This document shows positions 11,201 through 17,178 of a stretch of 64,000 bases of DNA, piece by piece. A program made the position numbers and the translations under genes. The DNA comes from Paraspadella gotoi (Eukaryota > Animalia > Chaetognatha). Within the stretch, counting starts at the first letter, position 1, and each line of letters opens with the position of its first letter. Below the pieces are notes generated by a model. The model had not been told where the DNA came from. It saw only the letters and a list, made by a program, of their open reading frames with translations, and made no database searches. The stretch lies in assembly GCA_051294375.1 (NCBI GenBank), contig CM119263.1, positions 29,096,079 to 29,160,078 on the forward strand, given 5' to 3'.

Positions 11201-14200
11201 GTGCGCCCGGAGTCGGCGGTGCAGACAAAGGTAGTTCTTGACAAACGCTATGAATGTTTATTAGCATAAAGTAAAAAAAAGTTAAAGGCGTGAAACTTTC
11301 AATCTCAGAACAAATAATGGTCAGTGGAATTTAGTCAGGGCAAAACTCGCAAAACAATATTCGTATATGACGTTAACAGCATTTTCAACTTTGTTATTTT
11401 ACTACAAATCATTCCCTTGTTTTCAAAAAGAAGAAAATAGCCGGTAAAATGGTTTGTCATTGTTTGCAATTTATTTTAAACATATACGATCCATCTCCAC
11501 TGGCATTGTTTTCTGTTTTCGTTCGGGAGAGAGTTTGCACTTGGCAGTAAAAGTCGTTGAAGAATGAAGACTTAATGTCGCGCCTCGTTATTTCGAATGA
11601 TCTTGATTTTTGAGTAGCTGTTAGACTCTGAGGCTTAATGGGTAATTGGGTATATTATTTGCTCGATTAAGTCGCGGTTATGGCTTATGTCCAATACTAT
11701 TAATGCGTAAAACTTCTCTCTCTCCTCTCTCTCCTCTCTCTCTCTCTCTCTCTCTCTCTTCTCTCTCTTAGATCACCACCCGTCCCCCGCTCGGAATCAA
11801 ACTTTCTCGGCAAATTCGCTTCTCCTTCCGGCACGGGTCCCGTCGTTCGAAGCCGAGAAGACGGCGCCGTTTATCTCGAGCTCGATTTCGACCGAAAGTG
11901 GAAACTCAGCGCCAAAGTGGAGATCGTAGCGGACGAGGAACGCTTCGTCAGCGACTCACCTACGGGTAAGGAATCGATTGAAGTCAGGAATTTAAAAACA
12001 TTTAAGGTGGATTGCTCGATCAAATATCGTTTGAAGTCAATTCTGTAGAAAAGTGACGTTGAGCTTGGAATAAAATTTTTTGAAAGGTGTTGTGCTTCTA
12101 GCACAGTACTAGCAGTACTAGCACTGCTAGTACATATTTCCGCACAACTCGTCCGAGAATAAGTAGACCTTTGACGCTCACTCCCAACCCAATGGCCTCG
12201 GGTTCGCGTCCTCCGGATTCAGACAAGAAAGTAGACTCGTTTAACCCCATCATTTCCTCCTTCGATTCCCATCTTACCAGTCACGCCTCCTTTTCTTGAC
12301 AGGAGAAATATCGGACGTCGTCATTCGGAGCGTCGGCGGACGCGTCACTCTCACCTTGACCGTTCGTAATCTCGGCCTCATCGCGTCCCCGTTCGTCGTA
12401 GCTGTTCCTAAATGTTCGCAGGTCCGATGTCACTGTAATTTTCACGGTCAAAGCCTAAATGTCATTAATTGTCAATGTCAGTAATTGTCGTTGTCAGTAA
12501 TTGTCATTGTCGTCGTCGATTAGGGAATTTACGCGGAGGAAGCCGTCGCGATTTATTTGAGTCCAAAAAAATCGCAGAGATTCTCCATGATTTTGTCTCG
12601 GTCCGTCGGAAAAGGGAAAAAGAAGGGACAGGCGAGGAAAAAGGATGTGGATACACGCGCACGGGTTTGAATTTAGATACGGATCATGAGATTATATTTT
12701 GAGAGAGATGAAATTAACTTTTGTTAATTCGATACGCCTGAAAATCAGAAAATTAATCGCTAAAGTTTAGCCTAAACCGAAATCCTCCTCGTCAACTTCT
12801 AATTTCGGCGAAGAAGATTAAAAGAAAAGCCGAAATAAAAATGTCGCGAAACGAAAAACGTCAATCGCCTTCCATCTTTTTCTCGCCAGACGAACGAGCG
12901 GAAACGAAGCGACATAACGAAGGAAAAAACGAAGAAGAGAGAAGAGAAACGAAGCGAAATGAAGAAAGGAGCCACCTGTCGGATTTCCCTTCAAGACAAA
13001 TCCACCGTCACGGAGCGTCGAGTCAAATTCAATGAGGACGACGTCTGCGCCTGCATCGGCCACTGCTCATGCGCGTGTCTTTCTGGAGTTACGAAAAAAA
13101 ACAGAGCGTCGTCGAGTGCGAAGAGAGGGAAGTCGTGCGCGAAACGATGGAGGGAGAGTAAGTCGAAAAAAGAAAATATGCAAATTAGGTTTTAAAGTGA
13201 GTCTTGAAGAGACAAATGAGCAATTCAAAGTTAATGTGTTGCAACACCTTAGCATAGTACTTTACTAAAGTCTTCGTAGGTTCTTTGTTACATCTTAGTT
13301 GAACAAACAAATAAATTACGTGATAATACTACACTTGAGGAAAACCTCAATTCGAAATGACATAGGTTCTCGTTGTTGTTGTTATAACCCAAAAAAAAAA
13401 AATATTTGACGGATTTTTTTTCTCCCTCGCGGGAATAAGATTTATCGGACAGGTCGGGTGACGGGTGACGACCCGAGGGGTTTTTCTTTTTTTTCCTTTT
13501 TTTTTTTGCCTGTATTTCGAGAAAAACTGTTAGGATAGAAAAATATTTAAAAATATTAAAAAAATTGAAAAAAAATATGCCGGGTTTACAGCAGCGACGA
13601 GACCGACGAAGACACGTCGGACGGAAATTCACTGGAAAATCAAATGCTGCTCCGTATCCACGGGCAGTTGGAGCGGGAGCTGGCGAAGAAGGCGGACCGG
13701 GCTGGCGGCGGAAGCGGCGTCGGAAGCGGCGGCGGAAGCGGAAAAGCAAAAGCGGAAAATGAGGAGGAGACGGACTTGAGGCGAGTAGAGGCGAGAGAGA
13801 GAAATGGAGAGACGATCGAAAAAGGGAGGAAAGGAAAGAGGAAGAGGAAGAAGAAGAAGCAGAGAGATGGAGAACGAGAGGATTTTTTATTAATTTTTTT
13901 CATTTTAGTTTAAACGAAGAAAAAATTTTAAAATAAAAAGCGAATTGATTTTTCTATCAAATAAATTTAAGCCGACGACGAAAAAAAAAGCTTTAATGAT
14001 TAATCGGATATGGTGGATTAAAATCCGCCAACCATTTACGTTTCACTGCGGTCAGAGGAACCGGAGGTAGTATGGTAGTATGTCGTGTTTGTGTTTGTTT
14101 AGTTGAAACAGCCTTATCCGGCTTATAACGTATTTCAAAACAATTCTTCACAAAGTGTTTGATGTTTTCTATCTGCCCTCTAACCTTTCTAATATCAAAT

Positions 14201-17178: not shown

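What the first reader, a model, noticed from the sequence alone, without database searches (positions are those of the whole stretch)
13592..15353. ~250-aa His-rich insert in the HAP2 stem, before the transmembrane segment
Seen: exons 15-17 lie between the CACIGHCSCAC motif and the TM. They encode a GGGSGVGSGGGSG linker, four xLAD repeats (DHLAD, GDLAD, THLAD, TDLAD) and about 30 His by hand count, including PHHHHH. Established: Arabidopsis HAP2 has its His-rich region after the TM, and the class II stem must zip along the trimer during fusion. Inference: an extracellular His-rich stem could be a pH- or Zn/Cu-sensitive switch or a long spacer.
Basis: partly seen in the sequence, partly recalled or inferred. 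Interest (0 to 1): 0.8.

Follow-up and report, generated by a model that had tools for sequence, protein, structure and literature searches.

The report
Long acidic histidine-rich stem in HAP2
An intron-rich gene that is likely the sperm-egg fusion protein HAP2 carries, in spliced transcript contigs, a 267-residue acidic, histidine-rich stretch just before its membrane anchor; this is about five times the length of the known algal stem and would likely act as a flexible, metal- or pH-sensitive tether, but its function is untested.

Summary
Exons at 13592-13780, 14329-14578 and 15026-15353 encode the Gly/Ser linker, four xLAD motifs, PHHHHH and 31 His.

One intron-less contig of a public run joins exon 14 (Cys motif), these three exons and exons 18-21 at GT/GC..AG borders. 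The exons are therefore not skipped in that form and belong to one transcript. Exon 17 encodes both the His-richest part and the first half of the membrane helix.

No hydrophobic segment lies between the signal peptide and residue 946, so the stretch is predicted to be extracellular.

Between the Cys motif and the first membrane segment lie 267 residues, against about 54 in Chlamydomonas (PMC6327110). The stretch is strongly acidic: net -31 at pH 7.4, -3.5 at pH 5.5. It is mostly predicted coil, unlike the basic cytoplasmic His-rich tail of plants.

Caveats:
- The window lacks one base in exon 14 and one in exon 11 relative to the contigs. Only the contig letters give one open 1171-codon frame.
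- HAP2 identity rests on one weak Pfam hit (E=0.0065).
- No ortholog could be found, so conservation is untested.
- Switch, latch and spacer roles all remain inference.

Moderate interest.

The parts
8218..8277 (+). Start codon and predicted signal peptide (residues 1-20) of the gene
   Evidence: First ATG of the spliced contig that begins at 8215. Kyte-Doolittle peak 2.02 at residues 6-24.
10447..10599 (+). Exon 8, the only piece with a database match to HAP2-GCS1
   Evidence: Pfam PF10699: E=0.0065, 15.5 bits (cut-off 27.4), profile positions 232-266 of 515.
11794..11795 (+). Place in exon 11 where the contig has one extra C
   Evidence: read-laying table 4. The frame is open only with the extra letter.
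12890..13157 (+). Exon 14: Lys/Arg/Glu-rich loop, end of the presumed domain III, Cys motif at 13046-13078, and start of the stem
   Evidence: Joints 12663>12889 and 13157>13592; translation.
13084..13088 (+). Place in exon 14 where the contig has one extra G and G>T; the window's frame breaks here
   Evidence: read laying tables 3 and 4; translations with and without the change.
13592..13780 (+). Exon 15 (189 nt, the only one of the three that could be skipped in frame): acidic start, amphipathic helix candidate, Gly/Ser linker at 13704-13742
   Evidence: Joints 13157>13592 and 13780>14329, the latter a GC..AG intron. TRF finds a period-12 repeat at 13704-13741. Hydrophobic moment peaks at 1.5 at residues 19-36 of the exon.
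14329..14578 (+). Exon 16: HHH, Ala4 and four xLAD motifs (14396-14485) with about 9-residue spacing, then an acidic tail
   Evidence: Contig piece 14327-14576; translation. AlphaFold2 single-sequence model: helices at residues 18-53, mean pLDDT 60. Three of the four repeat units were compared and share only 13 of 27 bases pairwise.
15026..15307 (+). Exon 17, His-richest part: 22 His in 94 residues, PHHHHH at 15182-15199
   Evidence: Contig piece 15024-15350; counts. AlphaFold2 single-sequence model: no secondary structure in residues 1-83, pLDDT 51-63.
15308..15353 (+). First half of membrane segment 1, encoded in the same exon as the His-rich part
   Evidence: Kyte-Doolittle maximum 2.95; helix at residues 84-108 of exon 17 with pLDDT 88-95.
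15859..15977 (+). Exon 18 start: second half of membrane segment 1 (to 15929), then a polybasic stretch beginning SQKRKQK
   Evidence: Joint 15353>15859; translation.
16318..16395 (+). Exon 19: second hydrophobic segment (16318-16374) followed by CCLKKCC (16375-16395)
   Evidence: Kyte-Doolittle 1.78; translation. PMC8777248 describes a Cys-rich polybasic stretch after the membrane helix of many HAP2 orthologs.
17176..17178 (+). Stop codon of the 1171-codon frame, in exon 21

Best explanation
Exons 15-17 are spliced into the transcript of a likely HAP2/GCS1 gamete-fusogen gene and encode most of a 267-residue acidic, histidine-rich stretch that is predicted to lie outside the cell between domain III and the membrane anchor, where it would most likely serve as a long, flexible, largely disordered tether able to bind divalent metal ions.

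Shown:
- exon linkage;
- one open frame, using the contig's letters;
- composition;
- no membrane segment upstream of the stretch.

Inferred:
- The short piece right after the Cys motif and the His/aromatic piece right before the membrane helix would play the usual stem and membrane-proximal roles.
- The roughly 210 residues between them would loop out as a lineage-specific low-complexity expansion.
- That expansion lengthens the reach of the ectodomain. Its charge (-31 at pH 7.4) and compaction would change with Zn2+/Cu2+-type ions or with acidification.
- Whether this tuning is used for regulation is open.
For: Linkage:
- One contig of 1689 letters joins 12889-13157 | 13592-13780 | 14329-14578 | 15026-15353 | 15859-16044 | 16307-16451 | 16746-16850 | 16980 onward.
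- Six of its seven introns are GT..AG and one is GC..AG, all on the + strand. Exon lengths sum exactly to the contig length (my sum).
- A second contig of 1848 letters equals exons 1-13.
- A third contig bridges 12663>12889.

Frame:
- With the contig's two extra letters, one frame is open from the ATG at 8218 to the stop at 17176-17178, giving 1171 codons. The other two frames hold many stops.
- Exons 16 (250 nt) and 17 (328 nt) cannot be skipped in frame. Exon 17 also encodes half of the membrane helix.

Topology:
- The only Kyte-Doolittle peaks above 1.4 are the signal peptide, a beta-strand-like piece of presumed domain III (1.48-1.62), residues 937-984 (2.95) and residues 1025-1048 (1.78).
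- Seven Lys/Arg follow segment 1 within 16 residues.

Disorder and composition (267 residues):
- 31 His, 57 Asp+Glu, 23 Lys+Arg.
- The stretch falls on the disordered side of the charge-hydropathy line.
- AlphaFold2 single-sequence models give coil for the His-rich 83 residues, and short helices only over the xLAD motifs.
- No Pfam family reaches its cut-off.

Not recent slippage:
- Only the Gly/Ser linker is a DNA tandem repeat.
- The LAD cores use different Leu codons (TTA, CTG, CTC, TTA).

Length comparison:
- The Chlamydomonas stem is 12 resolved residues plus 42 more before the membrane helix (PMC6327110).
- The stem is poorly conserved in sequence (PMC6170185).
- A large insertion with no detectable relatives is already reported in the louse HAP2-related gene (PMC2766252).
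Against: - No ortholog or any relative of exons 8, 9, 16 or 17 was found in six database searches. Conservation, and therefore selection on the stretch, is untested.
- HAP2 identity rests on one sub-threshold Pfam hit among 21 exon pieces scanned. Four exon pieces gave no HAP2 chain in the PDB search.
- Only one run of one study holds the spliced form, and its type is a guess ('RNA?'). A processed DNA copy would give the same joints.
- The window itself has two frame-breaking 1-base gaps, so the sequenced individual could carry a broken allele.
- Single-sequence AlphaFold2 models are weak evidence for disorder.
- A 267-residue stem leaves slack that the class II hairpin model does not foresee, so 'passive tether' may be too simple.
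- The second hydrophobic segment with CCLKKCC leaves the topology after residue 984 unsettled.
Confidence: 0.5

Rival explanations
1. The His-rich stem is a working regulatory switch. Zn2+/Cu2+ binding or His protonation would compact or neutralise the stem, and thereby trigger or shut off the fold-back of domain III.
For: - 22 His in the 94 residues next to the membrane. Exons 16-17 before the membrane helix hold 9 HH, 6 HxH, 7 HxxH and 10 His-acid neighbour pairs.
- Net charge moves from -31 to -3.5 between pH 7.4 and 5.5. The exon 17 part changes sign near pH 6.35.
- His protonation is a known trigger in viral fusion proteins (PMC10866366).
- A review speculates that zinc released by eggs may change fusogen conformation (PMC8784728).
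- The physiological trigger of HAP2 trimerisation is said to be unknown (PMC6089408).
Against: - No binding, conformational or functional data exist.
- Conservation could not be tested.
- HAP2 is not known to be pH-triggered.
- The His residues lie in predicted coil far from the domain I-III interface where viral His switches act (the location of viral switches is recalled, not checked here).
Confidence: 0.2
2. Electrostatic latch. The polyanionic stem would fold back on the strongly basic ectodomain and mask its polybasic loops until gamete contact.
For: - The ectodomain (residues 21-678) has net charge +36 and pI about 10. The stem has net charge -31.
- Polybasic islands lie at residues 151-255, which is where the fusion loops are expected (that placement is recalled), and at residues 586-660.
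Against: - The idea rests purely on charge arithmetic.
- The basic islands are themselves low-complexity inserts.
- No structural or binding test was possible. The complex predictor was not available, and it would not model disordered contacts well.
Confidence: 0.1
3. The gene is decaying in the sequenced individual, and the stretch is drifting low-complexity sequence without function.
For: - The window lacks one base in exon 11 and one in exon 14 relative to the contigs. As written, the frame from the Cys motif stops at 13777-13779.
- No relatives were found.
Against: - The spliced contigs carry an intact 1171-codon frame.
- All 20 introns have GT/GC..AG borders.
- Two single-base gaps are as readily assembly errors.
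Confidence: 0.07
4. The His-rich exons are cytoplasmic or belong to another gene.
For: In plants the His-rich region is cytoplasmic (PMC2841615).
Against: - The exons share a spliced contig with the Cys-motif exon and the membrane-helix exons.
- No hydrophobic segment lies upstream.
- The stretch is acidic (pI 5.2), not basic.
- Other frames and the opposite strand match no family.
Confidence: 0.03

Closest known systems
Chlamydomonas reinhardtii HAP2 stem and membrane-proximal region (PMC6327110; PMC6170185)
   Same: [quoted passage not shown]
   Different: It has about 54 residues (12 resolved plus 42) against 267 here. No His-rich or strongly acidic composition is described for it in the passages read.
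Histidine-rich C-terminal domains H1-H3 of flowering-plant HAP2/GCS1 (PMC2841615)
   Same: His-rich low-complexity sequence next to the membrane helix of the same protein family.
   Different: The plant domains lie after the helix (cytoplasmic) and are very basic (pI about 11-12.5), and positive charge is their functional feature. The stretch here lies before the helix and has pI 5.2 and net charge -31.
Lineage-specific insertions in animal HAP2-related genes (Pediculus large insertion, PMC2766252; 66-residue insertion in Tribolium fusion loop 1, PMC6089408)
   Same: Large insertions without detectable relatives inside an otherwise recognisable HAP2.
   Different: Per the passages read, those insertions are not in the stem, and no His-rich composition is reported for them.
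His-rich extracellular metal-binding disordered regions, e.g. histidine-rich glycoprotein, ZIP transporter loops, sea urchin bindin B18 (all recalled, none checked in a call)
   Same: Dense His with Asp/Glu in flexible sequence. In bindin B18, His-Zn2+ binding is said to promote membrane fusion.
   Different: There is no sequence relation, and metal binding here is untested. Two paper searches for bindin B18 found nothing relevant.

Membership tests
HAP2/GCS1 (Pfam PF10699, class II gamete fusogen) | Match to the HAP2-GCS1 profile above the curated cut-off | tested here: inconclusive
   1 of 21 exon pieces matched: exon 8, E=0.0065, 15.5 bits against a cut-off of 27.4, profile positions 232-266 of 515. 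The spliced protein could not be given to the tool, so the whole-protein score is unknown. Exon 9 resembles the family's Cys pattern by recall only.
HAP2/GCS1 (Pfam PF10699, class II gamete fusogen) | Signal peptide, large Cys-containing ectodomain, C-terminal membrane helix, cytoplasmic tail | tested here: met
   Hydropathy peaks at residues 4-26, 937-984 and 1025-1048. There are 16 Cys in residues 1-678.
HAP2/GCS1 (Pfam PF10699, class II gamete fusogen) | Cys-rich polybasic stretch right after the membrane helix (PMC8777248) | tested here: inconclusive
   A polybasic stretch follows segment 1. The Cys cluster CCLKKCC follows a second hydrophobic segment 42 residues later.
HAP2/GCS1 (Pfam PF10699, class II gamete fusogen) | Three-domain class II fold with hydrophobic fusion loops | not testable with these tools
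PDB sequence search of 4 exon pieces gave no HAP2 chain. The presumed loop region holds a polybasic insert.
HAP2/GCS1 (Pfam PF10699, class II gamete fusogen) | Expression in male gametes | not testable with these tools
   The one run that holds spliced contigs is coded, and its tissue is not on record.
Plant-type HAP2 histidine-rich C-terminal domain | Lies after the membrane helix, in the cytoplasm | tested here: not met
   The stretch lies before the first hydrophobic segment.
Plant-type HAP2 histidine-rich C-terminal domain | Net positive charge (pI about 11-12.5) | tested here: not met
   pI 5.2 and net charge -31 at pH 7.4; plant values from PMC2841615.
Class II fusogen stem | Connects domain III to the membrane helix | tested here: met
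   It lies between the Cys motif that ends the presumed domain III and segment 1. The domain III assignment itself is by recall of the family pattern.
Class II fusogen stem | Length of roughly 50 residues, enough to reach the fusion loops | tested here: not met
   267 residues, against 12+42 in Chlamydomonas.
His-rich metal-binding disordered region | Dense His with HH/HxH motifs in flexible sequence | tested here: met
   22 His in the 94 residues of exon 17 before the membrane helix. Exons 16-17 before the helix hold 9 HH and 6 HxH. Exon 17 is predicted coil.
His-rich metal-binding disordered region | Measured metal binding | not testable with these tools
   Needs recombinant protein.

The most novel reading that the evidence does not exclude
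This HAP2 carries its own trigger or off-switch. A polyanionic, histidine-dense stem would be titrated by Zn2+ (for example zinc released by the egg) or by local acidification. It collapses or releases the strongly basic ectodomain, and so gates the fold-back that fuses sperm and egg. That would be the first built-in regulatory module described for a eukaryotic class II gamete fusogen.
Probability: 0.12. Interest if true: 0.75.

Novelty: new variant of a known kind. Interest (0 to 1): 0.4.

Why it matters
What triggers HAP2 in vivo is said to be unknown (PMC6089408, passage). Reviews only speculate that ions such as zinc could change fusogen conformation (PMC8784728, passage).

This is a natural HAP2 whose stem is five times the usual length, polyanionic and packed with His next to the membrane. 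It gives a concrete construct for two questions:
- whether stem length and charge matter for class II fusion;
- whether metal or pH can gate a gamete fusogen.

If the stretch is only a tolerated spacer, that is informative too. It would show that tight stem zippering is not needed for HAP2 function in this lineage.

In five paper searches I found no description of a His-rich ectodomain stem in HAP2. I saw only listings, abstracts and passages, and no supplements, where family alignments may show stems.

Tried and rejected
Searches for relatives:
- Word-based protein search found none: exon 17 with longer lengths, exon 8 with longer lengths, exon 17 with near lengths.
- The full HMMER scan with exon 9 gave 5 hits. 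Four are bacterial surface repeat proteins (CHU_C with PKD or SprB domains) and one a 767-residue protein with unrelated low-complexity Pfam matches. All were judged spurious.
- Metagenome locus scans with exon 9 and exon 16 gave 572 and 596 pattern matches, none confirmed.
- The protein atlas gave no usable hit for exon 16. Exon 9 gave only weak leucine-rich-repeat look-alikes below the recognition level.
- PDB sequence search with exons 8, 9, 11 and 12 found no HAP2 chain.
- Earlier notes of this scan hold nothing on this genome or on these sequences.

Resources not available:
- No whole genome is held.
- No RNA holder is listed on record. The single holder is typed 'RNA?' by guess.
- The complex predictor (three copies of exon 15, to test a trimer helix) was unavailable because of a full queue.

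Other negative results:
- Rfam and tRNA scans of the window found nothing.
- The opposite strand and the other frames of the region match no Pfam family. All three + frames of exon 17 are open, so openness alone is no evidence; the frame comes from the splice phases.
- Paper searches for bindin B18 and zinc found nothing relevant.

Rejected idea:
- The HEELH in exon 17 as a zinc-protease motif. It is isolated in predicted coil, and no protease family matched.
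Full report
WHAT IS THERE

The window is intron-rich eukaryotic DNA.

On the - strand, 2779-5946 encodes a kinase with RGS, kinase and PH domains. By recall this is the GRK2-type architecture of animals. The taxon was not determined.

On the + strand a gene of 21 exons runs from an ATG at 8218 to a stop at 17176-17178. I built its model from contigs of one public run laid on the window. All 20 introns have GT..AG borders except two with GC..AG, after 10370 and after 13780.

- One contig of 1848 letters equals exons 1-13. The exon lengths sum exactly to 1848 (my sum).
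- One contig of 1689 letters equals exons 14-21.
- A further contig bridges 12663>12889, with only 29 letters on its shorter side.
- A low-depth contig covers 12635-12918 unspliced.

CHECK OF THE OBSERVATION

- GGGSGVGSGGGSG (13704-13742);
- DHLAD, GDLAD, THLAD and TDLAD (within 14396-14485);
- PHHHHH (15182-15199).

Exons 15-17 hold 31 His. The 94 residues of exon 17 before the membrane helix hold 22. The rest of the protein holds 20 in 904 residues. Binomial P is about 1e-13 and 1e-16.

Between the Cys motif (13046-13078) and the first strongly hydrophobic segment (from 15308) lie 267 residues.

Only the Gly/Ser linker is a DNA-level tandem repeat. The three xLAD units that I compared share 13 of 27 bases pairwise, and the four LAD cores use three different Leu codons. 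So these are not fresh slippage products.

In the window's own letters, the frame of the Cys motif enters exon 15 in another frame and stops at 13777-13779. The contig has one more G after 13084 (and G>T at 13088). In exon 11 it has one more C after 11794.

With these two letters, one frame is open over all 21 exons, giving 1171 codons. The other two frames are full of stops.

The window therefore has either two assembly errors or a broken allele. The transcript form is intact.

LINKAGE AND TOPOLOGY

- Skipping. The 1689-letter contig joins exon 14, exons 15-17 and exon 18 onward. In that form nothing is skipped. Contigs show presence, so rare isoforms cannot be excluded.
- In-frame skipping. 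Only exon 15 (189 nt) could be skipped in frame. Exons 16 (250 nt) and 17 (328 nt) could not.
- Same gene. Exon 17 encodes both the His-richest part and the first half of the membrane helix, so this part cannot belong to another gene.
- Strand. The intron borders read GT/GC..AG on the + strand. The opposite strand and the other frames match no family.
- Position. Hydropathy shows a signal peptide, then no segment above 1.4 except a strand-like piece of presumed domain III (1.48-1.62), up to residues 937-984 (maximum 2.95). Seven Lys/Arg follow within 16 residues. The stretch is therefore predicted to be on the same side as the ectodomain, which is outside.

One reservation on the run. Its type is a guess. 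A processed DNA copy would give the same joints. The unspliced low-depth contig fits RNA better.

NATURE OF THE STRETCH

- Composition: 57 Asp+Glu and 23 Lys+Arg.
- Computed net charge: -31 at pH 7.4, -18 at pH 6.5, -3.5 at pH 5.5; pI 5.2.
- The exon 17 part alone has a pI near 6.35.
- The stretch lies on the disordered side of the charge-hydropathy line.
- AlphaFold2 without an alignment gives no secondary structure for the first 83 residues of exon 17 (pLDDT 51-63), and a confident helix only for the membrane segment and about ten residues before it.
- For exon 16, AlphaFold2 gives three short helices over the xLAD motifs (mean pLDDT 60).
- Exon 15 holds an amphipathic helix candidate. A trimer test could not be run.
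- The ectodomain before the stem is very basic (+36, pI about 10), with polybasic islands at residues 151-255 and 586-660.

IS IT HAP2?

- Of 21 exon pieces, only exon 8 matches Pfam HAP2-GCS1: E=0.0065, 15.5 bits, below the cut-off of 27.4. The match sits at a fitting relative position.
- PDB sequence searches with four exon pieces found no HAP2 chain.
- The big HMMER scan with exon 9 found only spurious hits, mostly bacterial surface repeat proteins.
- The overall architecture fits.
- The Cys spacing at the start of exon 9 fits the family signature as I recall it.

I put HAP2 identity at about 0.85-0.9. The spliced protein could not be scanned or folded with the tools.

COMPARISON WITH WHAT IS KNOWN

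- The plant His-rich domains lie after the membrane helix, are basic, and act through positive charge (PMC2841615, passages). The stretch here fails both features, so it is not a displaced copy of that domain.
[quoted passage not shown] The stem is poorly conserved and zips along domain II (PMC6170185, passages).
- Many orthologs have a Cys-rich polybasic stretch right after the helix (PMC8777248, passages). Here the polybasic part follows segment 1. The Cys cluster CCLKKCC follows a second hydrophobic segment in exon 19. This leaves the topology behind residue 984 open, but does not touch the position of the His-rich part.
- Large insertions with no detectable relatives are already reported in insect HAP2-related genes (PMC2766252; PMC6089408).

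MECHANISM

Most likely (0.5): a lineage-specific, largely disordered, polyanionic tether. It lengthens the stem about five-fold and would bind divalent metals through its His clusters. The pieces next to domain III and next to the membrane would keep the usual stem roles.

Rivals:
- a true Zn2+/pH switch (0.2);
- an electrostatic latch on the basic ectodomain (0.1);
- a decaying gene (0.07);
- a cytoplasmic position or a foreign gene (0.03).

None of the functional readings could be tested. No ortholog was reachable in six searches.

VERDICT

Linkage and the outside position are supported. The switch idea remains plausible but unsupported.

This is a new variant of a known kind, of moderate interest.

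Noticed in passing
window 11794 and 13084-13088: Relative to the spliced contigs, the window lacks one C (exon 11) and one G (exon 14, with an adjacent G>T). Each breaks the reading frame. They are either assembly indel errors or a broken allele. T>C at 12960 changes one codon.
   Followed up: partly
window 16318-16395 (exon 19): A second hydrophobic segment (Kyte-Doolittle 1.78) is directly followed by CCLKKCC, 42 residues after the first membrane segment. Either this is the family's usual Cys-rich juxtamembrane motif displaced behind a re-entrant or extra helix, or the protein passes the membrane more than once.
   Followed up: partly
window 9387-9523 and 10132-10370 (exons 6-7): A polybasic low-complexity insert (net +9 in 30 residues) sits where, by recall, the fusion loops of HAP2 lie. 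Only a short LIGGF-type hydrophobic piece precedes it.
   Followed up: no
window 12524-13000 (exons 13-14): A Lys/Arg/Glu-rich loop of about 50 residues is encoded by purine-rich DNA and inserted inside the presumed domain III, just before its last strands.
   Followed up: no
window 10371-10444 and 13781-14328: Two introns of this gene have GC..AG borders instead of GT..AG.
   Followed up: partly
window 12635-12918: A low-depth contig (5.1) covers intron 13 unspliced, that is, a retained intron or pre-mRNA. This is also where the two main contigs end.
   Followed up: no
window 2779-5946, - strand: The neighbouring gene encodes a kinase with RGS, protein kinase and PH domains (GRK2-type architecture). 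It is transcribed away from the HAP2-like gene.
   Followed up: partly
window 9998-10112, 15710-15800, 33400-33700, 46500-46950: Long (GA)n and (TTGTC)18 microsatellites lie in introns and between genes. N runs lie at 18668-18677, 42022-42046 and 42142-42371.
   Followed up: no
window 48744-49936 +, 56824-57132 -, 59499-59900 -: Open frames that by eye look like a TPR-containing protein, an RBR/IBR-type zinc-finger piece and a mariner/Tc1-type transposase remnant. None was scanned.
   Followed up: no
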